64,000 bases of DNA from Flavobacteriales bacterium (GTDB taxonomy: Bacteria; Bacteroidota; Bacteroidia; Flavobacteriales_F; PHOS-HE28): positions 16,605 to 80,604 of the forward strand of contig JBIIYP010000013.1 of assembly GCA_044346705.1 (NCBI GenBank), written 5' to 3'. Under the pieces are notes generated by a model that saw only the letters and a program-made list of their open reading frames with translations, did no database searches and was not told where the DNA came from. Of the stretch, positions 455 through 35,733 are shown piece by piece (position 1 is the stretch's first letter; the number at the start of each line of letters is the position of its first letter). Position numbers and translations under genes: made by a program.

Positions 455-937
455 TCACTGTGCCTTGCGCGCGGCCAACCACACCAGGAAGCGCTGTTCA
501 GCCTCAGCATCCGGGAAGGCCGACTTGTCCAGAATGATCATCTGGCCAGCGGTCAGGTAGAGCAGGTGGCGTCCATCGATCTCCATGGTGCGCTGGATGT
601 AGGACCAGGGGATCTCGCTATGTCCGCCGCCCGGTGTGGTGCCCACGAGCTTCTCGGGATCCAGCACGAAACGGCGCTCCTCGAAGATCCGCTGGTTGTC
701 CTTGCGGTGCGCCCAAGCGTAGAGCCACACGAGCATGATCAGCGGCCAGGCAAGGCTGAAAAAGGTGATGAAGGTGTGCAGGGGCTCGCCGTCCCACGTG
801 AAGAGGTAGAAAAAGCCCATGAGGATCAGCAGCCCGTAAAGCCACCCGCTCTTCCGCAGTTTCAGACGCACGATGAGCCGGAAGTAGCTCATGGGTGTCA
901 GCTGCATCGGGCGCAGCGTGATGGCTTCGGTGCTCAT
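455..937 (-). CDS. YcxB-like small membrane protein (two TM helices plus a PH-like C-terminal region)
   Basis: The ORF 455..985 has an internal ATG at 937 (MSTEAITL...). The hydrophobic stretch is LYGLLILMGFFYLFTW...LAWPLIMLVWLYAWA. Confidence 0.45.
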   Translation of the reverse strand: MSTEAITLRPMQLTPMSYFRLIVRLKLRKSGWLYGLLILMGFFYLFTWDGEPLHTFITFFSLAWPLIMLVWLYAWAHRKDNQRIFEERRFVLDPEKLVGTTPGGGHSEIPWSYIQRTMEIDGRHLLYLTAGQMIILDKSAFPDAEAEQRFLVWLAARKAQ

Positions 938-945
938 GGCAAGGC

Positions 946-1126
946 GAACCGAACGTAGTGGATCTTCCGCCCTTCGGTCAACCACATCTGCTCGTAGAAA
1001 GTGCGGATGTTGAGCACGTCCTGTTCGGCGGGTAACACGCGGTTGACGAGGTCCGCATAGACGTCATCGCTCTTCTCCAGAACCGGCAACTTGTGCTCGG
1101 CGTTCTGCTCCAGCGTGTATGCATAG
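946..1126 (-). pseudogene. Duplicated 3' fragment of trmB. About 181 bp, ~93% identical to 4306..4487, with a divergent last 3-5 codons.
   Basis: Direct nucleotide comparison of 946-1126 with 4306-4487. The translated fragment ...LEQNAEHKLPVLEKSDDVYADLVNRVLPAEQDVLNIRTFYEQMWLTEGRKIHYVRFALP matches the TrmB C-terminus. Confidence 0.85.
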
Positions 1127-1222
1127 CGAAGTCGCGTTCGTGACCGGCACTGTGGAGGAGGGTCCGTTCGGGCATGCGGCATTGTAAGGGCGAAGATCGC
1201 TCTTGTCATCACGCAAGCTAAT

Positions 1223-2816: not shown

Positions 2817-2827
2817 ATACCATACGC

Positions 2828-4288: not shown

Positions 4289-4975
4289 TCACATGGGATC
4301 GATCCCGAACCGAACATAATGGATCTTCCGCCCTTCGGTCAGCCACATCTGCTCGTAGAAAGTGCGGATGTTGAGCACGTCCTGTTCGGCGGGTGACACG
4401 CGGTTGACGAGGTCCGCATAGACGTCATCGCTCTTCTCCAGAACCGGCAACTTGTGCTCGGCGATCTGCTCCAAGGTGTATTCATAGAGCAGCGGGCTGT
4501 CGGTCTTCAGGTGGATGAGGCCACCGGGCTTGAGCACCTCCTTGTAGCGCGCCAGGAACAAGGGGCTGGTGAGGCGCTTGCGGGCCTTGCCGATCTGCGG
4601 GTCGCTGAAGGTGAGCCAGATCTCGCCGACCTCGTGCGTGCCGAAACAACGAAGGAGATGATCGACGTGGGTGCGAACGAAACCGACGTTGTGCAGCCCG
4701 AGCTCCTTGGCCGTCCTGGCACCGCGCCAGATCCGCGCGCCCTTGATGTCCACCCCGATGTAGTTCTTCTCCGGCTCCAGCTGCGCCAGGCCCACGGTGT
4801 ACTCGCCGCCCCCACAGCCCAGCTCAAGCACCAGCGGGGCTTCGCGATGGAAGAAACCGCTGTTCCACTTCCCCTTGAACTTCAGGTCCGCAGCCTGCAG
4901 CTCCGTGAAGGTGGGTTGCACCACGTGTTCGTACGTGGCATTGTCAGCAAAGCGGCTGAGTTTGTTCTTCCCCAT
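4289..4975 (-). CDS. trmB: tRNA (guanine46-N7)-methyltransferase
   Basis: It has the SAM-binding motif LELGCGGGEYTVGLA and the TrmB C-terminus. The start is taken at the internal ATG (MGKNKLSRFADN...) rather than the 5107 ORF start. Confidence 0.8.
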   Translation of the reverse strand: MGKNKLSRFADNATYEHVVQPTFTELQAADLKFKGKWNSGFFHREAPLVLELGCGGGEYTVGLAQLEPEKNYIGVDIKGARIWRGARTAKELGLHNVGFVRTHVDHLLRCFGTHEVGEIWLTFSDPQIGKARKRLTSPLFLARYKEVLKPGGLIHLKTDSPLLYEYTLEQIAEHKLPVLEKSDDVYADLVNRVSPAEQDVLNIRTFYEQMWLTEGRKIHYVRFGIDPM

Positions 4976-6124: not shown

Positions 6125-6129
6125 GCCCG

Positions 6130-7389
6130 ATGCAGCTATTTTTGGTCACCATGTCTGTCCGCCCAGCGCTCTTCACGTTCGCCGTGTCCCTGCCCTTCCT
6201 GCTTTCCGCACAGGAGGATCTCGACAAGCAGCTGCTCGACCTGCAGGGGCGCTACGAAGCCCTGAGGCAACAGGAAGCGGCGCTTGCGCTCCCGATCGAG
6301 CAGGCCAAGCTGGCGATCCTTCGTCGCGACCTTGCCGCCATCGGACTTCCGGCCTTGACGGCGGGCGACCAGGTGATCACGCATCCCGGCCATGCGCTGG
6401 TGTACAGCGAAGCCCACGAAGTGCCGAAGTGGACCGCGCACATCGCCAGCACCGAGCTCATCCAAGGCAACCTCGCTCGCATCGACACCTTCCTCAAGGA
6501 CCCGCAGGTCTCCTCCGGAACGAGCACGGTGGAGGACTACTGGAACAGCGGCTTCGACCGGGGCCACATGGTGCCGAGCGCCGACATGCGCTGGAGCCTC
6601 GAAGCGTTGACCGCCACTTACCTCTACAGCAACATCGCACCGCAACGCCCCGAGTTCAACCGCGGTTCGTGGGGCGAACTGGAGGACTGGGTGCGGCGCA
6701 CCGTCCGCTATGGCAACGAACGCGTGTTCGTGGTCACGGGACCGGTGCTGCGCGATGGCCTGCCGAAGATGACCAACCCCGGGCACAAGAACGAGGTCAG
6801 CATCCCCGAGCTCTTCTACAAGGTGATCGCCGACCTCGATGGGGATGAGAAAAAAGCCATCGCCTTCGTGATGAAGAACGGCGTGAACGAATACCCCACC
6901 ATCAGCTACGCGGTGCCCATCGACAGCGTGGAGAAGCTCACCGGCCTCGACTTCTTCCCGGCCTTGGACGACGCCACGGAAGCACGGCTCGAGGCCCAGA
7001 GCGACCCGAAGGCCTGGTACCACGAAGGCGACCCCTTCTTCGGCGAGGTGGCACCGATGAAGGCTCCGCTGCCGAACGGCATGTTCAACACCGTACAGGC
7101 CAAGTACCACATCGGCAACAGCGCCACCATCTGCGGCACCGTCGTGAGCACGCGCCGCACCGCCAAGGCCAACGCCATCTACCTCAACCTGGACCGCGGC
7201 CACCCCAACCAGAACTTCTACGCCACCGTGTGGGACTACAACGGCCCCAACTTCCACTACGACCCGGAGACCTTCCTGGTGAACAAGCAGGTCTGCATCA
7301 CCGGCAAGCTGACGATGTACGACGAGATCCCGCGGATCAGCGTGAACAACGAGAACGCGATCATGCTCTGGGAGGAAGCGGTGAAGTAG
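6130..7389 (+). CDS. Secreted DNA/RNA non-specific endonuclease (NUC/EndoG family) with a C-terminal OB-fold-like domain
   Basis: It has the catalytic SGFDRGHMVPSADM (DRGH) motif. A signal peptide follows the internal ATG at 6130 (MQLFLVTMSVRPALFTFAVSLPFLLSA). Confidence 0.75.
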   Translation: MQLFLVTMSVRPALFTFAVSLPFLLSAQEDLDKQLLDLQGRYEALRQQEAALALPIEQAKLAILRRDLAAIGLPALTAGDQVITHPGHALVYSEAHEVPKWTAHIASTELIQGNLARIDTFLKDPQVSSGTSTVEDYWNSGFDRGHMVPSADMRWSLEALTATYLYSNIAPQRPEFNRGSWGELEDWVRRTVRYGNERVFVVTGPVLRDGLPKMTNPGHKNEVSIPELFYKVIADLDGDEKKAIAFVMKNGVNEYPTISYAVPIDSVEKLTGLDFFPALDDATEARLEAQSDPKAWYHEGDPFFGEVAPMKAPLPNGMFNTVQAKYHIGNSATICGTVVSTRRTAKANAIYLNLDRGHPNQNFYATVWDYNGPNFHYDPETFLVNKQVCITGKLTMYDEIPRISVNNENAIMLWEEAVK

Positions 7390-7404: not shown

Positions 7405-10400
7405 TTGTGGCCCGCCATGGACAAGCTCCTTACTGCCACCGCCACACTGCTGATCACCCTGTTCCTTGGCGCCTGCGGCACCGGGGACAAAAGCGGGGAC
7501 AAGACCAGCAGCACCTCCGCAGGTCCCCTGATGCAGGTTGTGCCGGCCGAACGCTCGGGCATCACCTTCAACAACACCATCACCGAGAGCCCGGAGATGA
7601 ACTACTTCACCTACATCTACGCCTACAACGGCGGCGGTGTGGCAGCGGGCGACATCAACAACGACGGGCTCACCGACCTCTACTTCACCGGCAACCAGGT
7701 CCCGGACAAGCTCTACCTGAACAAGGGAGGCCTGAAGTTCGAGGACATCACCGAGCAGGCGATCGGAACGAAGGCGAAGGAAGGTTGGCGCACCGGGGTG
7801 AGCATGGCCGATGTGAACGGCGATGGCTGGCTGGACATCTACGTGTGCCGCAGCGGCCCCACGAGCGACACGGCGCTCACGCGCAACCTCTACTACCAGA
7901 ACAACGGCAACGGCACCTTCAGCGAGCGGGCCCATGCGCTCGGCATCGCCGATACCACGCACAGCACGCAGGCCGCCTTCTTCGATGCGGACAACGACGG
8001 CGACCTCGACCTGTACGTGATGAACCACCCGCCGGGCCGCAAGCTCGGCCTCAGCAACTTCGCCGCGCTGAAGGCGATCCAGGACCACACCGCACCCACC
8101 GATCGCTTCTATCGGAACGAAGGCGGGCGCTTCACCGAGTCCACCTACGCCGCCGACCTTCAGAACTACGCGTACAGCCTGGGGCTGGGCATCGCGGACA
8201 TCGACCAGGACGGGTGGAGCGACATCTACGAGGCCAACGACTTCGACGCGCCGGACCTGATGTACCTCAACCGCACCGACGGCACCTTCGGCGAGCGGTC
8301 GCAGTTCCGCACGCGCCACACGAGCAACTTCGGCATGGGCTGCGACATCGCGGACTACAACAACGATGGCCTGCCGGACATCATGGTGCTGGACATGACG
8401 GCGGACGACCACAAGCGCAACAAGACCAACATGGGCAGCATGAGCCCGGAGCGGTTCTGGGCCAACGTGCGCGGCGGTTACTTCTTCCAGTACATGGTGA
8501 ACACGCTGCAGCTCAACAACGGCAACGGCACCTTCAGCGAGGTGGCGCAGCTCGCCGGCGTGGCGCGCACGGACTGGAGCTGGGCACCGCTATTCGCCGA
8601 CCTGGACAACGACGGCTGGAAGGACCTGATGATCACCAACGGCTTCAAGCACGACGTGCGCAACAATGATTATGCGCGTGGTACCTACGACAAGTTGAAG
8701 ACGGGCGCCGACTTCTACGGCACGCTGGACCTGATCCCCAGCACCAAATTGCGCAACTACCTCTTCCGCAACAACGGCGACCTCACCTTCGCCGACAGCT
8801 CGCAGGCCTGGGGCTTCACTGTGCCCGAGAACAGCAATGGAGCGGCTTATGCGGACCTCGACAACGACGGCGACCTGGACCTGGTGATCAACAACCTCGA
8901 TGAGGTGGCCACCGTCCACGAGAACACTGCGACCAGCCGCTTCCCGGACCGCCACTGGTTGCGGCTGAAGCTGACCAGCGGCAAGAGCGCCGCGTTAGCG
9001 GCAAAGGCGTATGTGCGCCACAAGGGCAGCCTGCAATACCAGGAACTCTCCCCCGTGCGCGGCTACCAGAGCACTGTGGAACCGTACCTGCATTTCGGCC
9101 TCGGGAGCGCCAGTACCGTGGACACCCTCGAGGTGCGCTGGCCCAACGGCACCCACAGCCTGCTCACCGGGGTGAAGCCCGACCAACTGCTGACACTGGA
9201 CCAGAAGGACGGCAGACCGCTCCCCACCGCCCCGGCGGTCCAAACGCTCTTCACCGACGTTCGGAGTTCGCTGAACGCCGACATGGTTCACGTGGAGAAC
9301 GCGTACGATGACTTCGCGCTCGAAGTGCTGCTTCCCCACAAGCAGAGCGAACAGGGCCCCTTGCTCGCCACGGCCGATGTGAACGGCGATGGGCGCGAGG
9401 ACGTGTTCATGGGCGGCTCCTACGTGAAGCCCGCGTCGCTGTGGCTGCAGCGTGCCGATGGCGGATTCGAAGCGGCGCGTTCACAACCCTGGAAGCAATA
9501 CACCATGCAGGAGCAGTTGGGCGGCGTGTTCTTCGATGCGGACAAGGACGGTGACATGGACCTGGTTGTCCTCGCCGGCTCCAATGAAGCGGACCTGCGC
9601 GAGGCGGCTTACACGCAACGCCTCTACCTCAACGATGGCAAGGGCGCTTACCGTGAGGTGAAGGATGCCCTCTCCTTCGTGATGACCAGCGCGCACAGCG
9701 CGGCCGCATCGGACATCGATGGCGATGGCGACCAGGACCTGTTCATCGGCGGGCGACAGACACCGGCGCACTACCCGTTCGCACCACGCAGCTACCTGTT
9801 GATCAACGACGGCACCGGCAGGTTCACCGACGCCACCCAACAGCTGGCCCCTGCCGTGATGGGCCCCGGGATGGTGACCGGCGTACGCTTCGCGGACATG
9901 GACAACGACCGCGATCCGGACCTTGTGATCGCTGGGGAATGGATGGGCATCATGGTCCTGTTGAACGAAAAGGGCCACTTCCTCGATGCCACTGTACCTG
10001 CGGGCCTGCAGGGCATGAAAGGCTGGTGGAGCGCGCTGACCACCGCCGATGTGAACGGTGACGGGCGCATGGACATCATCGCCGGCAACCTGGGCTGGAA
10101 CAGTAAATTCCATGGTACCGCGGAACACCCGGTGCACATCTACTGGGCCGACTTCGACGACAACGGACGGCACGACATCGTGCTGGCCAAGGAGAAGGCC
10201 GGGAAGCAACTGCCCGTGCGCGGCCGCGAATGCAGCAGCCAGCAGTGCCCGCGGATCCTGCAACGCTTCCCCACGTACCAGCAATTCGCGGATGCCGATC
10301 TCACCGCCATCTATACGCCCGAGAAGCTCGCCGGATCGCTTCACTTGCAGGCCACCTGGATGCTCAGCACCGTGCTGCTATCCAACGCCGATGGCACCTT

Positions 10401-10758
10401 CACGCCCAAACCCCTGCCGAACGCTGCGCAGGTATCACCCATCAACGGCATCGTTGCGCTGGACGTGAACAGCGACGGCCACTTGGACCTGGTCTGCGCC
10501 GGCAACCATTGGGGCGCAGAGGTGGAGACGGTGCGTTACGATGCCAGCATCGGCAGTGTCCTGTTGGGCAACGGCAAGGGGGATTTCCATGCGATGCCGG
10601 CCACCAGAAGCGGCTTCGTGGCCTGGGGCAACGTGAAGGACCTGGCACTGATCCAGCGCAACGGAAGGCGTACCGTGCTGGTGGCCAACAACAACGACGC
10701 CGTGCAGGCCTACGAACTGCGCGGCACCACGAAGCCTACTTCGACCGCTGCAAAGTGA
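7405..10758 (+). CDS. CRTAC1-family lipoprotein with FG-GAP/VCBS repeats and an ASPIC/UnbV domain
   Basis: It has a lipobox (LFLGAC), repeated DxNxDGxxD calcium-binding FG-GAP motifs, and ...LEVRWPNGTHS (ASPIC/UnbV signature). Confidence 0.75.
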   Translation: MWPAMDKLLTATATLLITLFLGACGTGDKSGDKTSSTSAGPLMQVVPAERSGITFNNTITESPEMNYFTYIYAYNGGGVAAGDINNDGLTDLYFTGNQVPDKLYLNKGGLKFEDITEQAIGTKAKEGWRTGVSMADVNGDGWLDIYVCRSGPTSDTALTRNLYYQNNGNGTFSERAHALGIADTTHSTQAAFFDADNDGDLDLYVMNHPPGRKLGLSNFAALKAIQDHTAPTDRFYRNEGGRFTESTYAADLQNYAYSLGLGIADIDQDGWSDIYEANDFDAPDLMYLNRTDGTFGERSQFRTRHTSNFGMGCDIADYNNDGLPDIMVLDMTADDHKRNKTNMGSMSPERFWANVRGGYFFQYMVNTLQLNNGNGTFSEVAQLAGVARTDWSWAPLFADLDNDGWKDLMITNGFKHDVRNNDYARGTYDKLKTGADFYGTLDLIPSTKLRNYLFRNNGDLTFADSSQAWGFTVPENSNGAAYADLDNDGDLDLVINNLDEVATVHENTATSRFPDRHWLRLKLTSGKSAALAAKAYVRHKGSLQYQELSPVRGYQSTVEPYLHFGLGSASTVDTLEVRWPNGTHSLLTGVKPDQLLTLDQKDGRPLPTAPAVQTLFTDVRSSLNADMVHVENAYDDFALEVLLPHKQSEQGPLLATADVNGDGREDVFMGGSYVKPASLWLQRADGGFEAARSQPWKQYTMQEQLGGVFFDADKDGDMDLVVLAGSNEADLREAAYTQRLYLNDGKGAYREVKDALSFVMTSAHSAAASDIDGDGDQDLFIGGRQTPAHYPFAPRSYLLINDGTGRFTDATQQLAPAVMGPGMVTGVRFADMDNDRDPDLVIAGEWMGIMVLLNEKGHFLDATVPAGLQGMKGWWSALTTADVNGDGRMDIIAGNLGWNSKFHGTAEHPVHIYWADFDDNGRHDIVLAKEKAGKQLPVRGRECSSQQCPRILQRFPTYQQFADADLTAIYTPEKLAGSLHLQATWMLSTVLLSNADGTFTPKPLPNAAQVSPINGIVALDVNSDGHLDLVCAGNHWGAEVETVRYDASIGSVLLGNGKGDFHAMPATRSGFVAWGNVKDLALIQRNGRRTVLVANNNDAVQAYELRGTTKPTSTAAK

Positions 10759-11894: not shown

Positions 11895-13589
11895 GTGCTC
11901 ATGCATTTCGGCATCCTCGAGTTCCTCATGTTGGCCGGTTCCCTGGCCCTCTTCATACATGGCATGAAGCTGCTGAGCGAAGGCCTGCAGAAGACCGCCG
12001 GAGGAGGCCTGCGACGGATCCTGGGGGCCATGACGGCCAACCCGTTCCGCGGGCTGCTCACCGGCTTCACCACCACGGCCCTGGTGCAGTATTCCTCGGT
12101 GACGACGGTGATGGTGGTGAGCTTCGTGAACGCCGGGCTCCTTTCCCTTCGCCAGTCCATTCCCGTGATCATGGGTGCCAATATCGGCACCACGCTCAAG
12201 GCGTTGCTTTTTGCTTCCGCTGGCGTGGCGAGCATGAAGCTATCCGTCGTGGCCCTGCCGATCCTGGGCATCGCCTTCCCGATGTTGTTCCTGAAGGGGG
12301 GACGGTTCAAGGCGGCCACCGAGATGTTGCTGGGCATCGCCCTGCTCTTCCTGGGTCTGGACCTGTTGAAGGAGAACGTGCCGCACTTTTCCGCCGATGC
12401 GCTGACCTTCCTGTCGGACCTCGGGGATAACGGCATTCTCAGCGTGCTTTTGTTCGTGGCGATCGGTGCGGTACTGGCGATCGCTGTACAGTCCAGCAGT
12501 GTGGCCTTGGCGCTCACCATGGCCATGTGCCAGAACGGGACCATTGGCTATGAGATGGCGGCCGCGATCGTGCTCGGCGAGAACATCGGCACCACGCTCA
12601 CCGCCAACATCGCGGCCATCGTGGCCAACGCCTGGGGAAAGCGCGCGGCACGGGCCCACTTCCTGATCAAGGTGATCGGCGTCGGTTGGGCTGTTCTGCT
12701 GTTCGGGCCCTACCTCGCCGGGATCGACCTCCTCGTTCAGGAATGGAACGGTGCATCCCCCTACACCAGCCCCAATGCCGTGCTCTGGGCGCTCACCTAC
12801 CTGCACATCTCCTTCAACGCGCTGAACACCGTTCTGCTCATCGGATTCCTGCCCTTCATTGAGCGCATCGTCACACGTATGGTGCGTTCCCGTGGGGAGG
12901 TGGATGAGGAGTACCGCCTGGAATACATCGAGGACCCGATGATGTCCCTAAGCCCCGAACTATCGCTGTTGGAGGCCCGCAAGGAGGTCCACAAGTTCGG
13001 ACGCCTCACCCAGAAGATGCATGGCATGGTCCGCGACCTGCTCATCGAGAAGGATGCCGCCGAACGCAGCCGCCTGCTCCTGCGCATCGCCAAATACGAG
13101 GACATCACCGACAGGATCGAAGTGGAGGTGAGCAAGTACCTCACCAAGACCGGTGCCGAGGCCCGCAACGAGGAGCTCAGCGAGCGCATCCGAGCCATGT
13201 TGTCCATCATCGGCGACCTGGAACGTGTGGGGGACATCCTGTTCCAGATGAGCAAGAGCGTTGAACGCAAGGTCGACGAACGCCTTTGGTTCAGCCCGGA
13301 GCAGCGACAGAACCTGCTCGAAATGATGCAGCTCCTGGAGAAAGCCTTCGAGGTCATGAACGAGAACCTCGGCATGGACGACGACACCGTGAAGCTCGAC
13401 GCCGCAACGGAGGCCGAGCAGCGCATCAACCAGCTCCGTGACCAGCTGCGGCGCACCCACCTGAAGAGCGTGGAGAGCGGCGACCACAACATCAAGAGCG
13501 GCATGGTCTATAGCGACCTCTTCAGCAGCTGCGAAAAGATCGGGGATCACCTGATCAACGTGAGCGAAGCGCTGGCCGGGGAGGTCTGA
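11895..13589 (+). CDS. Na+/phosphate cotransporter (NptA/YjbB family) with a C-terminal PhoU-like domain
   Basis: It has a multi-TM N-terminal half with the duplicated Na/Pi cotransporter motif, and a C-terminal coiled PhoU-like repeat (RIAKYEDITDRIEVEVSKYL...). Confidence 0.7.
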   Translation: MLMHFGILEFLMLAGSLALFIHGMKLLSEGLQKTAGGGLRRILGAMTANPFRGLLTGFTTTALVQYSSVTTVMVVSFVNAGLLSLRQSIPVIMGANIGTTLKALLFASAGVASMKLSVVALPILGIAFPMLFLKGGRFKAATEMLLGIALLFLGLDLLKENVPHFSADALTFLSDLGDNGILSVLLFVAIGAVLAIAVQSSSVALALTMAMCQNGTIGYEMAAAIVLGENIGTTLTANIAAIVANAWGKRAARAHFLIKVIGVGWAVLLFGPYLAGIDLLVQEWNGASPYTSPNAVLWALTYLHISFNALNTVLLIGFLPFIERIVTRMVRSRGEVDEEYRLEYIEDPMMSLSPELSLLEARKEVHKFGRLTQKMHGMVRDLLIEKDAAERSRLLLRIAKYEDITDRIEVEVSKYLTKTGAEARNEELSERIRAMLSIIGDLERVGDILFQMSKSVERKVDERLWFSPEQRQNLLEMMQLLEKAFEVMNENLGMDDDTVKLDAATEAEQRINQLRDQLRRTHLKSVESGDHNIKSGMVYSDLFSSCEKIGDHLINVSEALAGEV

Positions 13590-13690
13590 ACAAGTATCAA
13601 GTCACAAGTAGCAAGGGTCAAGGGTTCAATGCCCTTGTGACTTGACACTTGATACTTGTTACTTGAACCTTGACCCTTGGGTGTGCTCAG
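13590..13690. repeat. Heptad-periodic palindromic element: ~6 x CAAGNNN followed by ~7 x CTTGNNN, forming a long imperfect hairpin between convergent genes
   Basis: The sequence reads caagtat caagtca caagtag caagggt caagggtt caatgcc cttgtga cttgaca cttgata cttgtta cttgaac cttgacc cttgggt. Confidence 0.8.
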
Positions 13691-14199
13691 GGCACCACCA
13701 CCGCCTCCGTATACACGAGGTTGCTTTCGTGCAAGGCCCTGTCCACCAGCTTCACGCTGTAGCGGATGGTATCGCCGCTGGTGCCGGGCAAGGTGGGGTA
13801 CGGTTTCAACGCGACGGCGATCTCCCCTTCCAATGCCTTGTTCTGCCCCGTAGGCGTCACCACCGGAACGCGGTAGTAGAGCGGCAATGCGAATACGAAC
13901 GGGGGAGACCACACGTCATTCTCAAGCGTGTAATACTCCACGAAAAAATTGTGGTAATAGGTCTGCCCCGGGGCGAACGCGCCGGTCGTGTCGCCTTGTC
14001 CGAGGCCGATGTCGCCGTCGCCATCCGTGAACTTCACCACGATGGAGGCGGAATCACCGAACTGTTTGAACTCCTTGTAGCTGATCACGGGCTCCACGGG
14101 GAACTCCTCGGTCTTCAGGCAACCGGAAAGCAGGGTTCCGCACACGGCGGTGACCACGGCTAACTTGCGGGCGGTGCGGGCTGTTGGACGCATCAACAC
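13687..14199 (-). CDS. Hypothetical lipoprotein
   Basis: Signal and lipobox LLSGC. No recognisable catalytic motif. Confidence 0.4.
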   Translation of the reverse strand: MLMRPTARTARKLAVVTAVCGTLLSGCLKTEEFPVEPVISYKEFKQFGDSASIVVKFTDGDGDIGLGQGDTTGAFAPGQTYYHNFFVEYYTLENDVWSPPFVFALPLYYRVPVVTPTGQNKALEGEIAVALKPYPTLPGTSGDTIRYSVKLVDRALHESNLVYTEAVVVP

Positions 14200-14215
14200 A
14201 AAGGTAAGGCCTCCG

Positions 14216-15226
14216 ATGCACCCTCCCCTGCCCCCTCCCTACCAGGACCTGGCCGATCGGGTGTTCGCGGTAACGGATGCCGAAGCGTTCAACGCAGTGG
14301 CGCTCGACCTATTTCGTCTCCACGCCGCCCACAACCTCGTTTACCGTGGATTCCTGAAGGGATTGGGCACCACCGTCGAGGCGGTGGAACGCGTGGCCGA
14401 CATCCCCTGCCTGCCCATCGGCCTGTTCCGCAACCACCGCGTGTTGCTGGAAGGGCTGGAGCCTGCCGTCACCTTCACCAGCAGCGGCACCACAGGAGCC
14501 GTCACCAGCTCCCACCATGTGCCATGGCCTTCGCTGTACGAACGCTCCTTCCTCCGCTCGTTCGAAGCGGTATACGGCCCGGTGGCCGAATGGCGGATCC
14601 TGGCGGTGTTGCCCGCCTACCTGGAGCGCACTGGCAGCTCGCTGGTGTACATGGCCGAACAGCTCATCGCCCGTAGCGGCGATCCGATGAGCGGCACCTA
14701 CCTCTACCAGTACGATCGCCTGGCTGAATTGCTGAAGCAGAGCGAGGCCGAAGGGAAGAAGACCCTACTGTTGGGCGTCACCTTCGCGCTGCTCGACATC
14801 GCGGAACAGCACCCCATACCCCTGCGCCACACTACCATCATGGAGACCGGCGGCATGAAAGGGCGGAGACCGGAGCTGGTGCGCGATGAGCTGCATGCGC
14901 TCCTGAAGCAGGCCTTCAGTGTACCTGCCATCCACAGCGAATACGGCATGACGGAACTGCTGTCCCAGGCGTGGAGCACGGGTGAAGGGACCTACCGTTG
15001 CCCACCCTGGATGCAGGTGCTCGTGCGCGACCCCAACGACCCCTTCGAACGCCTCGGCACCGGTCGCACCGGCGGCGTGGACGTGATCGACCTTGCCAAC
15101 ATCGCCAGCTGCCCCTTCATCGCCACACAGGACCTCGGTCGGGTGGCCGCGGATGGCTCCTTCGAAGTGCTGGGCCGCTTCGACTTCAGCGACCTGCGCG
15201 GGTGCAACTTGTTGGTGGTGGAGTGA
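14216..15226 (+). CDS. LuxE-like acyl-protein synthetase / acyltransferase family protein
   Basis: A 337-aa protein from the internal ATG (MHPPLPPPYQ...). It has an adenylate-forming-like core (TSSGTTG..., ...ETGGMKGRR...) characteristic of the LuxE family. Confidence 0.5.
   Translation: MHPPLPPPYQDLADRVFAVTDAEAFNAVALDLFRLHAAHNLVYRGFLKGLGTTVEAVERVADIPCLPIGLFRNHRVLLEGLEPAVTFTSSGTTGAVTSSHHVPWPSLYERSFLRSFEAVYGPVAEWRILAVLPAYLERTGSSLVYMAEQLIARSGDPMSGTYLYQYDRLAELLKQSEAEGKKTLLLGVTFALLDIAEQHPIPLRHTTIMETGGMKGRRPELVRDELHALLKQAFSVPAIHSEYGMTELLSQAWSTGEGTYRCPPWMQVLVRDPNDPFERLGTGRTGGVDVIDLANIASCPFIATQDLGRVAADGSFEVLGRFDFSDLRGCNLLVVE
15169..15226. repeat. Direct repeat copy 1 (3' end of the luxE-like gene including its stop), partner at 16371..16427
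   Basis: gctgggccgcttcgacttcagcgacctgcgcgggtgcaacttgttggtggtggagtga compared with the copy at 16371 (2 mismatches). Confidence 0.85.
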
Positions 15227-15280
15227 GTGGCCAAAGTCTCTTTCCGCTGAACGCGCAGATGAGCCCTCCGGATCCGAGGA

Positions 15281-16033
15281 TCATCCTTTGAGGCGCATGG
15301 CCTGCCGCGCCACATCGACCAATTGCGGGTCGCCTTTGGCAAGCAAATAGAACTGAATGAACCAGTAGGGCATCTGTTGAAGGTCCCAGGACCATTGCTG
15401 GCCACCATCGCCCACCTTCATCTCTGCGAACATCACCGGCTCCTCCCCACTATTGTCGAACAAGAACGCGTGGTAGCACAGATCCAACGCAGGTACCAGT
15501 TGCTTCAAGGACCTCCAGTACCGTTCCATGATCTTCTCGGTTGGAACATCATGACCGCCTTGCTTGACCCTGGTCTTCACCCGGTCAATATTCATGAGCG
15601 GGGATTCCGTGGCCACGAAATAGAGGTAAACCTTATAGCCGTTCTTCCTAGCCTTGTCCATTACGGCCAACTTGGAGGAGTGGCTGAACACCGTTTCGAA
15701 CGAGAGCTTCTTGGCTCGTTTGATCAACAGGTGAACAATGTGCTGGGCAAGGAGCTGGGCATACCGTTGTGAGTCAACCGGTGCCTTGATCTTGAACACG
15801 TTCACACCCCAAGTCTGCCCTTTGCGGAACCAGAGCAGATCAGCGGGGCCTGGCAACAGACCACTGCTACGCGCGAATCGTTCGAAGACAAGCTTGTTGC
15901 TGTGGACCCCGAAATTCAGAAGGTTCAAGTGCTTGGTCGTGCGAAGGATCCGCTCGATCTCATCCGGGTTCACATACACGCCCATGTCCACCGGACGGCC
16001 ATTCACAAAAGCCTCTCGCACCTTGGTGTACAT
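15281..16033 (-). CDS. Zeta-toxin/COG4185-like P-loop kinase homologue with a degenerate Walker A (putative toxin or pseudo-toxin)
   Basis: The C-terminal region has ...KQGGHDVPTEKIMERYWRS and the N-terminal motif VNPDEI, typical of zeta-like kinases. The expected GxxGxGKS/T is replaced by GRPVDMG. Confidence 0.4.
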   Translation of the reverse strand: MYTKVREAFVNGRPVDMGVYVNPDEIERILRTTKHLNLLNFGVHSNKLVFERFARSSGLLPGPADLLWFRKGQTWGVNVFKIKAPVDSQRYAQLLAQHIVHLLIKRAKKLSFETVFSHSSKLAVMDKARKNGYKVYLYFVATESPLMNIDRVKTRVKQGGHDVPTEKIMERYWRSLKQLVPALDLCYHAFLFDNSGEEPVMFAEMKVGDGGQQWSWDLQQMPYWFIQFYLLAKGDPQLVDVARQAMRLKG

Positions 16034-16106
16034 GGTGCTCTATCCCCGAGCCGTTCGGACCAGCGAACACACGCAAGCGCAAGGTCTTGGCCATGCGGGA
16101 TCCAGC

Positions 16107-16328
16107 CTACGGCAACTTCACCGGCTCCAGACGCTGGACGCGTTTGGTCACCTTGCCGGCCTTGTTCACCATCACCAACCACCCGTCGCGCTCCACCATG
16201 ATGGTCTTTCGAACCGTAAAGGCCATCGCTTTGGCCTGTTTCGCCGCCTTCTTGAAGGCTGCATCCATCGCGCGACCTTCCGCGGTCGGTTTGCGAAGCG
16301 TCTTCAAAGCCTGCTTCTTGGTTGCCAT
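16107..16328 (-). CDS. Small basic protein (73 aa), putative antitoxin or partner of the downstream zeta-like gene
   Basis: It lies immediately upstream and co-oriented (74-bp gap) with the zeta-like ORF. There is no independent homology evidence. Confidence 0.3.
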   Translation of the reverse strand: MATKKQALKTLRKPTAEGRAMDAAFKKAAKQAKAMAFTVRKTIMVERDGWLVMVNKAGKVTKRVQRLEPVKLP

Positions 16329-16370
16329 GGTCCAAAGTTAAGGACGCCACTAATGCTTGAGGTGGACGCT

Positions 16371-16427
16371 GCTGGGCCGCTTCGACTTCAGCGACCTGCG
16401 GGGATGCAACTTGTTGGTGGTGGAGTG
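16371..16427. repeat. Direct repeat copy 2 of the luxE-like 3' end
   Basis: See 15169..15226. Confidence 0.85.
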
Positions 16428-16455
16428 AACGATCACCTCCCTGGCACGAGCAGCA

Positions 16456-17127
16456 CTACAAATGGTAGTAGTACAGGTTGCCCTCGAAGTTCGTGTCCAG
16501 GTTCGCCTTGCTATCGAAGAAGACCTGCTCCGTGGGAGCCTTGCAATACCCGAACTCATCATGCGCGGTGATCAACCGGGCATAGGCCGAGGCGATCACT
16601 GCATGTGAGCCATCGGAACTGCTCCGCAGCAGCTGGTCCTCCGTGTGGAAGAAGCAGGTAACGGTGCTTCCGAACCGATCGAACATCCAGACCCCATGCT
16701 CGGCGAACTGAACGACCAATGCGTCTATCTGCGCTTGTGGGATCCGCTGGTTGCATTCCGCCTTGGCGATGGGCTCGAACGCAGTGATGATCAGGAAGGG
16801 CTCGGAGCCGGTGCTTCCTGATGAAGGACCAACGGGCAACTGTGCGATCGCGCTCGCGTGGAAGGCCTTCCATATCCTGGCTTCCTTGGCGCCATCGATC
16901 TGCAGCGGACCTGACCAAAAGCCCGCCGCTTCGGCATAGCGTTCGAAGACCACCATCAACCTGGCCCGGCCGGCCGTTGCGACCCACTCGTAAAGGATGT
17001 TGAGCGGCCGCATGCCGAACTCCTGTTGGAGCCGATCCGCCAATTCGGACCCCGGCACGCCCATGCGATCAAGTCCCTGCTTGATCCGTTTCGTGGCTTG
17101 ATAATCCGGGTCGGAAGGAACGATCAT
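16456..17127 (-). CDS. Hypothetical protein (223 aa), downstream of tyrS
   Basis: An ORF with coding-like composition. No recognisable motifs. Confidence 0.35.
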   Translation of the reverse strand: MIVPSDPDYQATKRIKQGLDRMGVPGSELADRLQQEFGMRPLNILYEWVATAGRARLMVVFERYAEAAGFWSGPLQIDGAKEARIWKAFHASAIAQLPVGPSSGSTGSEPFLIITAFEPIAKAECNQRIPQAQIDALVVQFAEHGVWMFDRFGSTVTCFFHTEDQLLRSSSDGSHAVIASAYARLITAHDEFGYCKAPTEQVFFDSKANLDTNFEGNLYYYHL

Positions 17128-17160
17128 GCGTTCTCGATCAGCGAAGGGCCATGTCCTCGC

Positions 17161-18438
17161 TTACACCACCTTCACCAGGAAGTAACTCTTCTTCCCCCGC
17201 TGCAGCAGCACGAAGCGCTCGCTCAGCAGGTCGGAAGCGTTCACCACGCGGTCCTCGGCGGCCTTGGTGCGGTTCACGGCGATGGATCCTTCCTTCAGGG
17301 CGCGTTTCGCTTCGCCCTTGCTGGGCAGAAAGCCGGTGTGGTCCGTGAGCAGATCGATGATGCCGATGCCTGAGGTGAGCGCGCTGCGCGGCACTTCGGC
17401 CTGGGGCACACCGTCGAACACCTCCAGCAGTTGCTTCTCGCTGAGTTGGCTCAGCCCGTCCGTGGCATTGCTGAAGAGGATCTCGCTCGCACGGAGGGCG
17501 GCGTCCTTCTCAGCTTCCCCATGCACCAGCCTGGTGATGAACGCCGCCACCTCCTTCTGCAATTTGCGTCGTCCGGGATCCTTGGTGTGCTCGGCGATCA
17601 GAGCTTCGCATTCCTCCTGGGTCCAGTGCGTGAAGATCTTCGCGAAGCGCGCGGCCTCATCGTCCGAAGCGTTCAACCAGAACTGGTAGAACTTGTAAGG
17701 GCTGGTGCGCGCGGCATCGAGCCACACGTTGCCGCCCTCGCTCTTGCCGAACTTGCTGCCATCGCTCTTGGTGAGCAGTGGCGTGGTCACAGCGAAAGCC
17801 TCACCCCCTTCCATGCGGCGGATGAGCTCCGTACCCGTGGTGATGTTGCCCCATTGGTCGCTGCCTCCCATCTGCAAGCGACACCCGAGCTGCTTGTAGA
17901 GGTGCACGAAGTCGTAGCCCTGCACCAGCTGGTAGCTGAACTCGGTGAAGCTGATGCCGCTCTCCATGCGGTTCTTCACACTGTCCTTGGCCATCATGTA
18001 GTTCACGGTGATGTGCTTGCCCACTTCGCGGATGAAGCGGAGGAAGCCCATGTCCTTGAACCAGTCGTAGTTGTTGACGAGCTGCGCGGGGTTGGTGGGG
18101 CTGTTGAAATCGAGGAAGCGCTCCAGCTGGGCCTTGATGCAGGCCTGGTTGTGGCGGAGGGCGTCCTCATCCAGCAGGTTGCGTTCAGCGCTCTTGCCGC
18201 TGGGGTCGCCGACCATGCCGGTGGCGCCGCCAACGAGCGCCACGGGCTTGTGACCGCAACGCTGGAAGTGCACCAGGATCATGATCTGCACCAGGTTGCC
18301 CACGTGCAGGCTGTCCGCCGTGGGGTCGAAGCCGATGTAGCCGAGGGCCGGGGCCTGCTTCAGGTGGTCGGCGGTTCCGGGCATGCTGTCGTGCAGCAGT
18401 CCGCGCCAGTTCAGTTCGTGCAGAAAGTCGGTGGGCAT
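17161..18438 (-). CDS. tyrS: Tyrosine--tRNA ligase
   Basis: It has a HIGH-like motif (LHVGNL), a KMSKS-like motif (KFGKSEG) and a C-terminal S4 domain. The start is taken at the internal ATG ([11 protein letters not shown]...). Confidence 0.85.
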
Positions 18439-18629
18439 GGGGGGAAATGCGGGTTGCGAAGGTAGACAGCGGACAGGAGGCAGGGAGCAGCCGCAGTGGC
18501 CAGGAAGAGAGGAACCACCGATGGACACAGATGAACACAGATACTGATAAGAGCTGGCTGCCGGACCTACGCCCGTGGCTCGTGGCTCAGGGCTCGCAGC
18601 CAAAAGCGAAGGAAACAAGCTCTGCTGCC

Positions 18630-34555: not shown

Positions 34556-34605
34556 TTCACTTCCCGCGCACCAGTATCACGAACACTGGCCAGTGATGCC
34601 CGCAA
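34556..34605. repeat. Diverged (~87%) copy of the last ~45 bp of the endonuclease/exonuclease/phosphatase gene; partner at 34690..34740
   Basis: tcacttcccgcgcaccagtatcacgaacactggccagtgatg compared with tcacttctcgcgcaccaggatcacgaacacgggaaagtgatc. Confidence 0.6.
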
Positions 34606-34689: not shown

Positions 34690-35733
34690 TCACTTCTCGC
34701 GCACCAGGATCACGAACACGGGAAAGTGATCGCTCCAGCCATCGGTGTACTGATCCCCCACGAAGGTCCGGTGGGGATAGCCTTGGAAGTTGCCGTCCGT
34801 CTGTTTCAGGAAGGGCTCGTTGAACACGCGGGTGCCGTAGTAGCGGTAGTACCCGCCTGCGCCGCTCACCATGTTGGGGCTCAGGATGATCTGGTCGAAC
34901 AGGTTCCAGCTGTCCCTCCACGCCAGCGAACCGATGCCCTTGTTGTACAGCTCGAACATGGGGTTGTAGAGCAGGGGCCCCACGGCCTTGTTCTTGTCGC
35001 CTGTGCTCTTCAGGGCTCTTTTCACGCTCTCATCCACGGGGTCGTCATTGAGGTCGCCCATGTAGGCGATACGGCCTTGCGGATGCACTGTCGCAAGTGA
35101 ATCAACGATGTGGCGGCCCAAGGAGGCGGCCAGCACGCGCAAGGGTTTCGAACGGGCCTCGCCACCGCGCCGTGAAGGCCAGTGCGCGACGATCACGGAG
35201 AGCGTATCACCGTCGGCCAGGCCGGTCACCACCAGTTGGTCGCGGGTGCGCCAGGCGGTATCGGCGGGGTTGCTCAAGCGGTAGGCGCGCTCATGCAGCA
35301 CGGTGAAGCGCGCGGGATCATAGAGCATGGCCACGTCCACGCCCCGCCGGTCGGGCGAATCGTGGTGCACGATGCCATAGTGCTTGTTCGCGATGGCCTT
35401 GGCCTTCACCAGGTCCTCCAGCACACCGCGGTTCTCCACTTCGGCAAGCCCGATCACCGCGAGGCCGTTCAGGTCCTTGCCCATGGCACCGATCACCTCC
35501 CCCATCTTGTCCACCTTTCGTCCGTAACGCATAGTGCCCCATTGCTTCGCGGCGCCCGGCAGGAATTCCGCATCATCGGTATCCGGCGAATCGATGGTGT
35601 CGTAGAGGTTCTCGATGTTGTAGAACCCGATGCAATACGGCACCAATTCCTGCTTCGCCTTGCCATCGGCCTGTGCGTGCAACGAATAGGAACCAAGCAA
35701 TGCGACGGAGAGAAGAAGACCGTAACGGATCAT
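34690..35733 (-). CDS. Endonuclease/exonuclease/phosphatase (EEP) family secreted protein
   Basis: A signal peptide follows the internal ATG (MIRYGLLLSVALLGS). The EEP N-terminal motif is YCIGFYNIENLYD and the C-terminus is ...GWSDHFPVFVILV. Confidence 0.7.
   Translation of the reverse strand: MIRYGLLLSVALLGSYSLHAQADGKAKQELVPYCIGFYNIENLYDTIDSPDTDDAEFLPGAAKQWGTMRYGRKVDKMGEVIGAMGKDLNGLAVIGLAEVENRGVLEDLVKAKAIANKHYGIVHHDSPDRRGVDVAMLYDPARFTVLHERAYRLSNPADTAWRTRDQLVVTGLADGDTLSVIVAHWPSRRGGEARSKPLRVLAASLGRHIVDSLATVHPQGRIAYMGDLNDDPVDESVKRALKSTGDKNKAVGPLLYNPMFELYNKGIGSLAWRDSWNLFDQIILSPNMVSGAGGYYRYYGTRVFNEPFLKQTDGNFQGYPHRTFVGDQYTDGWSDHFPVFVILVREK

What the first reader, a model, noticed from the sequence alone, without database searches (positions are those of the whole stretch)
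15169..16427. Toxin-antitoxin-like two-gene cassette flanked by ~58-bp direct repeats of the luxE-like gene 3' end
The last 58 bp of the acyl-protein-synthetase-like gene, including its TGA, recur at 16371-16427 with 2 mismatches. The copies bracket a 1.1-kb segment carrying a 73-aa protein and a 250-aa zeta/COG4185-like protein. This is the same architecture as the trmB/nadV case: a 3'-end copy, then cargo, then another 3'-end copy. It suggests a recurring insertion mechanism in this genome.
Basis: seen in the sequence. Interest (0 to 1): 0.68.

Follow-up and report, generated by a model that had tools for sequence, protein, structure and literature searches.

The report
Toxin-antitoxin cassette inserted with gene-end duplication
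A small, now-broken toxin-antitoxin cassette was inserted at the end of a housekeeping gene with a 59-base copy of that gene's end on each side; a relative has the exact empty site, and the pattern fits host recombination adding, swapping and removing such cassettes without a dedicated enzyme.

Summary
A 59-nt direct repeat (15168-15226 and 16370-16428, 57/59 identical) is the last 59 nt of the luxE-like gene including its TGA. It brackets 1143 nt carrying only a zeta-type toxin and a 73-aa antitoxin. A related metagenome contig (L137) is an exact empty site: the window equals it plus 1202 nt, which is the cargo plus one repeat copy. Close relatives carry either the zeta cassette or a VapBC cassette between the same two copies. 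A farther relative has luxE and tyrS overlapping by 4 nt. The VapBC cassette is about 99% identical in two lineages whose luxE differs by about 16%, with the breakpoint in the last ~17 nt of luxE. The window holds two more cases (trmB with a nadV island, and an endonuclease/phosphatase gene). Mirror-image control searches gave no hits. The three repeats share no motif, and no recombinase was found. The most likely mechanism is integrase-independent, homology-anchored insertion-duplication, after which the two copies act as recombination arms. This is inferred, not shown. The toxin carries a +1 frameshift in its Walker A motif in 29 of the 30 fetched assemblies of this species (the repeat junctions are in 27-29). 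It is a moderately interesting variant of known island biology.

The parts
14216..15226 (+). luxE-like acyl-protein synthetase gene (336 aa), the target gene
   Evidence: Pfam LuxE match at 4.1e-8. Called as a 336-aa product in about 96 assembly blocks. The synteny NaPi-lipoprotein-luxE-> <-tyrS is conserved across Flavobacteriia.
15168..15226 (+). Proximal repeat copy (P): the functional last 59 nt of luxE, including the TGA
15227..16369 (.). Inserted cargo, 1143 nt, absent from the empty-site relative L137
   Evidence: Window 13268-15226 aligns to L137rc 1-1944 and window 16370-18471 aligns to L137rc 1886-3987. The two alignments overlap on exactly the 59-nt repeat. GC is 51-56%.
15281..16094 (-). 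Zeta-family toxin gene, a pseudogene: a +1 frameshift (extra base at about 16042) sits inside the Walker A motif (GPNGSG|KST). The 250-aa ORF 15281-16033 is its 3' part.
   Evidence: Alignment with the intact L111 and L123 genes shows GGG-A[T]AG-AGC. The motif is present in 29 of 30 same-species loci. Intact homologues are 270-278 aa.
16107..16328 (-). 73-aa putative antitoxin, intact, ending 12 nt upstream of the toxin ATG
   Evidence: Found with exactly this sequence in 97 assembly blocks. It has no Pfam or NCBIfam match. A small ORF of 55-74 aa precedes the toxin in other family members.
16333..16340 (-). TAACTTTG on the minus strand, 4 nt before the antitoxin ATG: a candidate Bacteroidetes -7 promoter box (inference)
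   Evidence: Read directly from the sequence. The block CCAAAGTTAAGGA is conserved in L111, L120 and L123. The consensus TAnnTTTG comes from my own knowledge and was not tested.
16370..16428 (+). Distal repeat copy (D): the displaced native luxE 3' end, now a non-coding remnant
   Evidence: It is contiguous with orf223 and tyrS exactly as the single luxE end is in L137. D copies in relatives decay: L123 D has 5/59 differences and L119 D has an indel.
16456..17127 (-). orf223, a conserved hypothetical protein and the native right-hand neighbour of luxE in this clade. It is itself an older insertion relative to L121.
   Evidence: It is absent from L121 and from L002-L013.
17161..18438 (-). tyrS (tyrosyl-tRNA synthetase), convergent with luxE. 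Its 3' part is mosaic between strains.
   Evidence: In L086 the stretch 17128-17512 does not align.
4306..4492 (-). Parallel case 1, proximal copy: the 3' end of trmB (4289-5107), followed by a foreign tail GIDPM*
934..1131 (-). Parallel case 1, distal copy: the native trmB 3' end. Its TGA overlaps the ATG of the downstream YcxB-like gene. The cargo between the copies is NrtR-prs-nadV (1223-4285).
   Evidence: Full-length TrmB proteins with this FALP* tail occur in same-species metagenome contigs (P0241, P0367).
34690..34730 (-). Parallel case 2, proximal copy: the last 41 nt of the Exo_endo_phos_3 gene (34690-35889)
34557..34597 (-). Parallel case 2, distal copy (88% identical, includes the stop codon), separated from the proximal copy by about 90 nt of sequence in which I see inverted repeats (not folded)
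   Evidence: E=1.8e-9 in the local search.

Best explanation
A 1143-nt cassette holding only a zeta-type toxin-antitoxin operon and its minimal promoter was added at the 3' end of the luxE-like gene. The event duplicated the last 59 nt of that gene. The copy continuous with luxE (P) keeps the gene intact. The displaced native end (D) stays attached to the old downstream neighbours, orf223 and tyrS. I propose that no dedicated recombinase was involved. Under this model, DNA from a relative that already carried the cassette next to its own luxE was anchored by homology in luxE. It was fixed either by one crossover of a circular [59 nt + cargo] molecule (Campbell type) or by an illegitimate join at the other end (homology-facilitated illegitimate recombination, HFIR). 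In this compact genome luxE and tyrS abut or overlap, so only events that duplicate the gene end leave both neighbours intact. Once formed, P and D act as short homology arms. They allow cassette deletion (P x D, giving the empty site), replacement (zeta by VapBC) and transfer into other backgrounds by ordinary host recombination. An active toxin-antitoxin pair would penalise loss through P x D recombination. In this species the toxin is now frameshifted, so the module is decaying. Shown here: the duplication, the exact empty site, alternative cassettes in the same slot, recent cassette transfer with a breakpoint at the luxE end, and the recurrence of 3'-end duplications. Inferred: RecA dependence, the form of the intermediate, the direction of each event, and the stabilising role of the toxin-antitoxin pair.
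For: (1) The indel is exact. L137 aligns to the window on both sides, and the two alignments overlap by exactly the 59-nt repeat.

(2) The slot is variable. luxE and tyrS overlap by 4 nt in L121. The slot holds zeta TA in the window, L111, L120 and L123, VapBC in L119 and L125, and Phd/Doc in L001.

(3) L119 and L125 differ by about 16% in luxE but show only 2 mismatches in about 170 nt from the last ~17 nt of luxE into the VapBC cassette. L119's functional luxE ends GAC TAG while its D copy keeps GAG TGA.

(4) In L120 the same TA+D block is followed by different DNA starting exactly after D's TGA.

(5) No integrase, transposase or resolvase domain appeared in the cargo, in the ORFs scanned with Pfam, or in the called genes of overlapping contigs. 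No tRNA was found.

(6) The three repeat pairs in the window share no motif. Their lengths vary: about 41-47, 59 and 182-187 nt.

(7) Three of 47 gene 3' ends have a downstream direct copy, against none in three mirror controls.

(8) In the trmB case the distal copy is native, because its TGA overlaps the next gene's ATG. The proximal copy carries a foreign tail. Full-length TrmB proteins with the native tail occur in same-species metagenome contigs.

(9) Other zeta-family cassettes (L128, L132) and the Doc cassette in L001 have no flanking repeats, so the duplication is not encoded by the cassette.

(10) An independent luxE-cargo-luxE remnant-tyrS arrangement exists in Flavobacterium.

(11) Strong mosaicism of toxin alleles and of the tyrS 3' end shows frequent recombination here.

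(12) HFIR-displaced 3' ends are the published model for V. cholerae T6SS immunity arrays and Rhs orphans (PMC5361080).
Against: Homology arms of 41-59 nt are near the lower limit for RecA-type recombination (my own knowledge), so Campbell integration through them would be rare. No donor lineage with luxE-TA and no D copy was found. The illegitimate junction therefore cannot be checked for microhomology, and Campbell and HFIR cannot be told apart. On the luxE tree L137 is nested among D-bearing lineages, so it may be a secondary excision rather than the ancestral state. Polarity is unresolved. No circular junction or same-species empty junction was seen in the 30 fetched loci, but these were selected for carrying the cassette. 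A recombinase encoded outside the 64-kb window cannot be excluded. The strict 3'-end bias is also what integrase-driven islands show.
Confidence: 0.6

Rival explanations
1. The cassette is a cargo-only derivative of a site-specific integrative element. A tyrosine or serine recombinase encoded elsewhere acts in trans and uses the last 59 nt of luxE as attB. P and D would then be attL and attR, and cassette arrays would grow by tandem accretion, as in tRNA-targeting islands or tycheposons.
For: The direct repeats sit exactly at a gene 3' end and the empty site is exact. Different cassettes occupy the same slot, and variable DNA lies on both sides of D. The VapBC breakpoint falls within the last ~17 nt of luxE. 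All three duplications are at 3' ends.
Against: No recombinase domain was found in the cargo or among the window ORFs scanned. The three repeat pairs share no motif, so three separate specificities would be needed. Repeat length is variable (41-187 nt), and the D left boundary differs between the zeta (-59) and VapBC (about -51) arrangements. A 182-nt repeat at 95.6% identity is unusual for an att core. Most cargo-bearing luxE/tyrS spacers in other genomes have no remnant. The 20-nt core pattern is absent from IMG/VR viral contigs.
Confidence: 0.15
2. The duplication persists because the distal copy is functional. It would be the transcription terminator or 3' UTR of the convergent neighbour, which in the compact ancestral arrangement lies inside the luxE coding end. 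Selection for that element, rather than the insertion mechanism, would explain why the copy is there.
For: In Flavobacterium L064 and L049 the conserved core of the remnant is a hairpin (TCCCAA...TTGGGA) flanked by an A-run and a T-run. It abuts the tyrS stop codon, so it looks like a bidirectional terminator embedded in luxE. luxE and tyrS overlap or lie within 10 nt of each other in several relatives.
Against: In the window's clade the 59-nt segment has no terminator-like site. Its folding is not better than shuffled sequence, with z from -1.05 to +0.13. D copies accumulate substitutions and an indel like a pseudogene. This reading also explains retention only, not how the duplication arose.
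Confidence: 0.1
3. The repeat is a chance match or an assembly artefact.
For: None, apart from the source being metagenomic.
Against: E=6e-21. The P and D junctions recur in 27 and 29 of the 30 fetched same-species contigs, which come from dozens of independent assemblies. The same arrangement, with the same boundaries, is present in related lineages from other samples.
Confidence: 0.01

Closest known systems
Homology-facilitated illegitimate recombination with displaced 3' ends (V. cholerae T6SS effector-immunity arrays; Rhs/CDI orphan arrays; PMC5361080)
   Same: A conserved upstream gene serves as the homology anchor. New cargo is added next to it, and the old 3' end is pushed downstream as a remnant. 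Arrays and mosaics then spread by ordinary homologous recombination. No integrase is involved.
   Different: Here the anchor genes are housekeeping genes (luxE-like, trmB, a nuclease/phosphatase), not polymorphic toxin genes. The cargo is a toxin-antitoxin operon or a metabolic module. The displaced piece is only 41-187 nt and non-functional, and the functional gene is unchanged in protein sequence.
Minimal mobile elements of Neisseria (PMC3787668, PMC1797815)
   Same: Different whole-gene cassettes sit between the same pair of conserved genes in different strains. No mobility genes are present. Exchange occurs by recombination in the flanks.
   Different: Minimal mobile elements as I know them need two conserved flanking genes and leave no duplication (not checked in the papers). 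Here a copy of one gene's end is carried along, giving the cassette both arms from a single gene.
Integrase-mediated genomic islands at gene or tRNA 3' ends, including cargo-only arrays such as tycheposons (bioRxiv 10.1101/2020.12.28.424599; resemblance recalled from memory, paper not read here)
   Same: A direct repeat of the target's 3' end flanks the cargo, the target gene is restored, the empty site is exact, and accretion at one site is possible.
   Different: No integrase was found, there is no common core, the repeat lengths vary, and the targets are unrelated protein-coding genes.
Campbell-type insertion-duplication (single crossover of a circular DNA carrying a chromosomal fragment), as used for suicide-vector mutagenesis
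   Same: The product has exactly this structure: the homologous segment is duplicated on both sides of the insert, and the insert can be lost by recombination between the copies.
   Different: This would be a natural event with very short homology (59 nt). The origin of the circle is unknown.
Epsilon/zeta (PezAT) toxin-antitoxin systems
   Same: A Pfam Zeta_toxin P-loop kinase-like toxin is preceded by a small ORF in one operon.
   Different: The 73-aa upstream protein has no detectable similarity to epsilon or PezA. There is no sequence match to any solved structure. The toxin is inactivated by a frameshift in this species.

Membership tests
Zeta-toxin family type II toxin-antitoxin system | Toxin matches the Zeta_toxin domain above the curated threshold | tested here: met
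The match covers profile positions 77-165 only.
Zeta-toxin family type II toxin-antitoxin system | Intact Walker A P-loop (GxxGxGKS/T), needed for kinase activity | tested here: not met
   In the window the motif reads GPNGSG followed by a frameshift (extra base at about 16042). Relatives P0002, P0003, L111 and L123 have GPNGSGKST. The family assignment holds, but the window copy is a pseudogene.
Zeta-toxin family type II toxin-antitoxin system | Small antitoxin gene immediately upstream in the same operon | tested here: met
   The 73-aa ORF ends 12 nt before the toxin ATG. ORFs of 55-74 aa precede homologous toxins in unrelated contexts.
Zeta-toxin family type II toxin-antitoxin system | Antitoxin homologous to epsilon/PezA, with neutralisation of the toxin | tested here: not met
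   The 73-aa protein has no Pfam or NCBIfam match. Neutralisation cannot be tested with these tools.
Site-specific integrative island (integrase + att) | Direct repeats of the target 3' end and an exact empty site | tested here: met
Site-specific integrative island (integrase + att) | Integrase or recombinase gene in or next to the element | tested here: not met
   The cargo holds only the two toxin-antitoxin genes. No recombinase domain appeared in the Pfam scans of the window ORFs tested or in the called genes of overlapping contigs. A recombinase elsewhere in the genome is not excluded.
Site-specific integrative island (integrase + att) | A common core sequence at sites used by one recombinase | tested here: not met
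   The best local alignment scores among the three repeat sequences lie within the range of shuffled sequences.
Integron gene cassette | attC-type imperfect hairpin at the cassette boundary and an intI/attI platform | tested here: not met
   Folding of the repeat region is not better than shuffles. No integrase was found. No Rfam match was found.
Homology-anchored insertion-duplication (Campbell or HFIR) | The insert is bounded by a duplicated stretch of the recipient, with no other change at the site | tested here: met
   The L137 alignments overlap by exactly 59 nt.
Homology-anchored insertion-duplication (Campbell or HFIR) | Donor-type polymorphisms in the copy next to the cargo and native sequence in the displaced copy | tested here: met
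   trmB: the proximal tail is GIDPM*, while the distal tail FALP* overlaps the next gene's ATG and is found in full-length same-species TrmB. L119: the proximal end is GAC TAG and the distal end is GAG TGA. For the window's luxE pair itself there are only two synonymous differences, which is uninformative.
Homology-anchored insertion-duplication (Campbell or HFIR) | Microhomology at the illegitimate junction, or a circular intermediate; RecA dependence | not testable with these tools
   No donor arrangement was recovered. No circle junction was seen in the 30 fetched loci, but these are not an unbiased sample.
Minimal mobile element / replacement islet | Different cassettes between the same conserved genes in related strains, exchanged by recombination in the flanks | tested here: met
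   The slot is occupied by zeta, VapBC, Doc, a 114-aa membrane ORF, or nothing. The VapBC cassette is about 99% identical between lineages whose luxE differs by 16%.

The most novel reading that the evidence does not exclude
These Flavobacteriales may carry a class of integrase-free mobile cassettes whose only mobility feature is a short copy of the 3' end of a conserved host gene. Host recombination between the two copies would excise a circle consisting of one copy plus the cargo. After transfer, that circle could re-insert into any relative's intact gene end without damaging it. Toxin-antitoxin cargo would penalise loss. If this is general (three cases in 64 kb), it would be a main route of additive gene gain in compact genomes that lack classical mobile elements. 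Alternatively, an undiscovered trans-acting recombinase could target gene ends.
Probability: 0.25. Interest if true: 0.7.

Novelty: new variant of a known kind. Interest (0 to 1): 0.5.

Why it matters
Many abundant environmental bacteria with compact genomes show plenty of small gene-content differences between strains but few classical mobile elements. This locus gives a concrete, testable anatomy for how such genes may come and go. The cargo is bracketed by a duplicated gene end. An exact empty site exists. Alternative cassettes occupy the same slot. One cassette is nearly identical in lineages that are otherwise 16% diverged. If host recombination alone does this, short gene-end copies are a simple marker for finding recently acquired genes in metagenome-assembled genomes. 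They would also explain how insertions are tolerated between overlapping or abutting genes. The toxin-antitoxin cassette itself is ordinary, and here it is decaying.

Tried and rejected
Terminator or RNA-structure role for the repeat: there is no terminator-like site in it, folding z-scores run from -1.05 to +0.13, and there is no Rfam hit. I rejected this for the window's clade, although the independent Flavobacterium remnant does look like a terminator.

Integron attC reading: there is no hairpin and no integrase.

Cassette-encoded mobility: other zeta-family loci (L128, L132) and the Doc cassette in L001 have no flanking repeats.

Common motif among the three repeats: none found.

Recombinase in the window: none found in three Pfam batches or in the called genes of overlapping contigs. 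About a dozen ORFs in my gene list were not scanned directly.

Same-species empty site or circle junction for the luxE cassette: none in the 30 fetched loci. All exact-protein look-ups returned the filled arrangement.

Viral origin of the luxE repeat: the 20-nt core pattern is absent from IMG/VR.

Solved-structure relatives of the toxin: none by sequence.

Polarity of L137 (ancestral or excised): the luxE neighbour-joining tree is star-like and L137 is nested, so this stays unresolved.

Full report
OBSERVATION. The repeat is real. Window 15168-15226 and 16370-16428 are 59 nt long with 57/59 identical. Self-blastn of the whole window gives E=6e-21. The first copy is the last 59 nt of a luxE-like acyl-protein synthetase gene (14216-15226; Pfam LuxE), including its TGA. 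In both copies homology stops exactly at the stop codon. Both mismatches are synonymous third-codon positions. Self-blastn finds only one other long-range repeat in the window, the trmB pair, so this is not a dispersed family.

The 1143 nt between the copies have lower GC, 51-56% against 61-66% over the luxE gene upstream. They carry two minus-strand genes: a 73-aa ORF (16107-16328) and a zeta-family toxin gene (Pfam Zeta_toxin). The 250-aa ORF is only the 3' part of a 270-aa gene (16094-15281). That gene is broken by a single extra base at about 16042, inside the Walker A codons. Relatives read GGG AAG AGC (GKS) where the window reads GGG ATA GAG. The same frameshift motif is present in 29 of 30 independently assembled contigs of this species, so it is not a sequencing error.

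COMPARATIVE ANATOMY. Across Flavobacteriia the order NaPi transporter - lipoprotein - luxE -> <- tyrS - epimerase is conserved. The luxE and tyrS stop codons range from overlapping by 4 nt to 3.3 kb apart. I ordered relatives by LuxE identity and looked at what sits between the two genes.

- L121 (81%, GCA_016788485.1): luxE and tyrS overlap by 4 nt and nothing lies between them.
- L137 (about 90%): luxE -> <- orf223 - tyrS, with one luxE end and no toxin-antitoxin cassette.
- The window, L111/L136 (90%), L120 (92%) and L123 (89%): luxE - zeta toxin-antitoxin - luxE remnant. The remnant has the same left boundary in all four. The toxin is intact (270-273 aa) in all but the window's species.
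- L119 (93%) and L125 (85%): a VapB/PIN-VapC cassette follows luxE instead. In L119 it is followed by a shorter, degraded remnant of about 50 nt and then orf223.
- L001 (77%): a Phd/Doc-type pair sits in the same slot with no remnant.

The decisive result comes from L137. Window 13268-15226 aligns to L137rc 1-1944, and window 16370-18471 aligns to L137rc 1886-3987. The two alignments overlap on L137 by exactly the 59-nt repeat. The window is therefore that site plus 1202 nt, which is the cargo plus one repeat copy. The distal copy (D) is the native luxE end, still attached to its old neighbours.

EVIDENCE THAT THE TWO COPIES ARE USED AS RECOMBINATION SUBSTRATES. First, L119 and L125 differ by about 16% across luxE. 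From the last ~17 nt of luxE through about 170 nt of the VapBC cassette they show only 2 mismatches. L119's functional luxE ends GAC TAG, like the outgroup L121, while its remnant keeps GAG TGA. The cassette therefore arrived recently together with the very end of a foreign luxE. Second, in L120 the same toxin-antitoxin + D block is followed by unrelated DNA starting exactly after D's TGA. Third, toxin alleles are mosaic. P0002 appears nearly identical to the window over the C-terminal half but much more divergent in the N-terminal half (by eye; the N-terminal part is not aligned by blastn). P0003 shares the window's N-terminus. A strain of the window's own species (L086) has a replaced tyrS 3' end plus a DUF805 gene. 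Fourth, D copies decay like pseudogenes: L123 D has 5/59 changes and L119 D has an indel.

RECURRENCE. The window contains two more gene 3' ends with a downstream direct copy.

The first is trmB (4289-5107, minus strand). Its last ~187 nt recur at 945-1131 (95.6% identity over 182 nt). The cargo between the copies is an NrtR-type NUDIX regulator, a prs-like gene and nadV. The TGA of the distal copy overlaps the ATG of the next gene (ATGA), so the distal copy is the native end. The proximal copy ends with a different tail (GIDPM* against FALP*). Full-length TrmB proteins that are 99% identical but end in FALP* exist on other metagenome contigs of this species (P0241; P0367 on a 7.4-kb contig, with further strain-specific substitutions). 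This is what an empty-site allele would look like. Their contigs could not be fetched.

The second is an Exo_endo_phos_3 gene (34690-35889, minus strand). Its last 41 nt, stop codon included, recur about 90 nt downstream at 88% identity.

A systematic search compared the last 200 nt of 47 genes with the 6 kb downstream of each. It recovered exactly these three cases, plus three short 15-17-nt matches at E=0.002-0.008 that I take to be chance. Three mirror-image controls gave no hit at E<=1e-4: 5' ends against upstream, 3' ends against upstream, and 5' ends against downstream.

The three repeat sequences share no motif beyond chance. No integrase, transposase or resolvase domain was found in the cargo, in the window ORFs scanned with Pfam, or in the called genes of overlapping same-species contigs. 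About a dozen ORFs in my gene list were not scanned directly. No tRNA or Rfam family is present. Other zeta-family cassettes in unrelated contexts have no flanking repeats.

An independent example at the same gene pair exists in Flavobacterium (L064, L049): luxE - 114-aa membrane ORF - luxE remnant - tyrS. There the conserved core of the remnant is a hairpin flanked by an A-run and a T-run, and it abuts the tyrS stop codon. It looks like a bidirectional terminator embedded in the luxE coding end.

MECHANISM. The best-supported reading is an integrase-independent, homology-anchored insertion-duplication. Foreign DNA carrying the cassette next to a luxE end is anchored by homology in luxE. It is fixed either by a single crossover of a circular [59 nt + cargo] molecule or by an illegitimate join at its far end (HFIR). 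HFIR is the model proposed for displaced 3' ends in V. cholerae T6SS arrays and Rhs orphans (PMC5361080).

Selection explains the shape of the survivors. In all three window cases the target gene abuts, overlaps or converges on a neighbour. Only events that duplicate the gene end leave both genes whole. A promoterless 3' fragment is harmless, whereas a 5' fragment would not be.

Once formed, P and D allow ordinary host recombination to act in three ways. It can delete the cassette, which gives exactly the L137 structure. It can swap the cassette, as in L119. It can move the cassette or the neighbouring DNA between backgrounds, as in L120.

The steps shown are the duplication, the exact indel, the alternative cassettes, the recent transfer with a breakpoint at the luxE end, and the 3'-specific recurrence. 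The steps inferred are RecA dependence, the nature of the intermediate, the polarity of L137 (ancestral or excised; the luxE tree is star-like and L137 is nested), and any stabilising role of the toxin-antitoxin pair. Arms of 41-59 nt are short for RecA-type recombination. For the founding events this favours HFIR with the whole gene as anchor. Later exchanges would then use the short copies only rarely.

RIVALS. A trans-acting site-specific recombinase cannot be excluded, because only 64 kb were examined and the 3'-end bias fits it. It would, however, need three unrelated specificities, and it fits poorly with the variable repeat lengths and boundaries. A functional role for D as a terminator is not supported in this clade, though it is plausible for the Flavobacterium remnant. 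Chance or assembly artefact is excluded.

CLASSIFICATION. The cargo belongs to the zeta-toxin family by domain match and operon layout. Its antitoxin is unrelated to epsilon/PezA, no solved structure matches by sequence, and the window copy is a pseudogene. The insertion architecture works like HFIR or Campbell products and like minimal mobile elements. It fails the tested defining features of integrase islands (recombinase, common core) and of integron cassettes.

VERDICT. The recurring mechanism is most likely general recombination plus selection in a compact genome. I rate it a new variant of a known kind, with interest 0.5.

Noticed in passing
window 934-1131 and 4289-4492; cargo 1223-4285: The trmB/nadV island has the same architecture as the luxE case. 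The native trmB end (FALP*, its TGA overlapping the next gene's ATG) is displaced by 3.2 kb of NrtR-prs-nadV, and the functional trmB carries a foreign tail (GIDPM*). Same-species TrmB proteins with the native FALP* tail exist (P0241, P0367). The S/L site inside the repeat is polymorphic among strains (P0364), which may indicate conversion between the two copies.
   Followed up: partly
window 1977-4285; viral loci L145-L224: The prs-like + nadV gene pair of the trmB island is a module common in IMG/VR viral contigs. There were 339 NadV relatives at 52-61% identity among those listed. In 74 of the 80 fetched loci a prs-like match lies within about 2 kb upstream on the same strand. The cargo may ultimately derive from phage. 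No trmB fragment was found in those loci.
   Followed up: partly
window 34557-34597 and 34690-34730: This is a third gene-3'-end duplication. The last 41 nt (with the stop codon) of an Exo_endo_phos_3 gene recur about 90 nt downstream at 88% identity. By eye, the spacer contains inverted repeats (GGACACGG/CCGTGTCC; CCTGC...GCAGG) and no gene. I did not fold it.
   Followed up: partly
window about 16042 (toxin gene 15281-16094, minus strand): A single extra base sits inside the Walker A lysine codon of the zeta toxin. It is present in 29 of the 30 fetched assemblies of this species, while the 73-aa antitoxin stays intact. Sister lineages have intact toxins.
   Followed up: yes
window 17128-17512; L086/L096, L111, L119: The 3' third of tyrS exists in two very divergent allelic forms (425-aa and 442-aa products). 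One strain of the window's own species (L086) carries the other form plus an extra DUF805 gene. Its identity to the window drops from 99.7% to 96.8% beyond that point, which indicates a recombination tract from another lineage.
   Followed up: partly
L064 7388-7458; L049 7411-7446: In Flavobacterium the luxE coding 3' end contains an A8 - hairpin (TCCCAA...TTGGGA) - T-run element that looks like a bidirectional terminator serving convergent tyrS. After insertion of a 114-aa membrane ORF, a copy of just this piece is retained next to tyrS.
   Followed up: partly
L119 3040-3058 and 3090-3110 (also in L125): The VapB-like antitoxin gene contains two near-exact matches of 19-21 nt to the adjacent luxE gene. 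These are ACGCCATYCTGAAGCAGGC, and GACTTCAGCGACCTGC, which lies inside the 59-nt repeat region and encodes DFSDL. They may be codon-bias coincidence or traces of microhomology-mediated events.
   Followed up: no
L120 9168-9418: About six tandem copies of a 42-nt unit (92-94% identical) lie downstream of the alternative right-flank gene, a 210-aa ORF with a weak fn3 match.
   Followed up: no
window 37476-45703: A type I restriction-modification system (hsdR 37476-40463, hsdS 42256-43419, hsdM 43961-45703) has a GIY-YIG nuclease-domain ORF (43416-43886) between hsdS and hsdM. Two unannotated ORFs (40519-42171) lie between hsdR and hsdS.
   Followed up: no
window 22138-28896 and 7405-10758: A 2252-aa ORF on the minus strand is built of 237-nt repeats; same-species contigs annotate it with a CHU_C domain. 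A 1117-aa FG-GAP/ASPIC repeat protein is also present. Together they account for most of the repeat families in the window.
   Followed up: no
window 6037-7389: A 450-aa protein with a non-specific DNA/RNA endonuclease domain (Endonuclease_NS, 1.4e-51) lies 0.9 kb from the trmB island. Its relevance to DNA uptake or processing is unknown.
   Followed up: no
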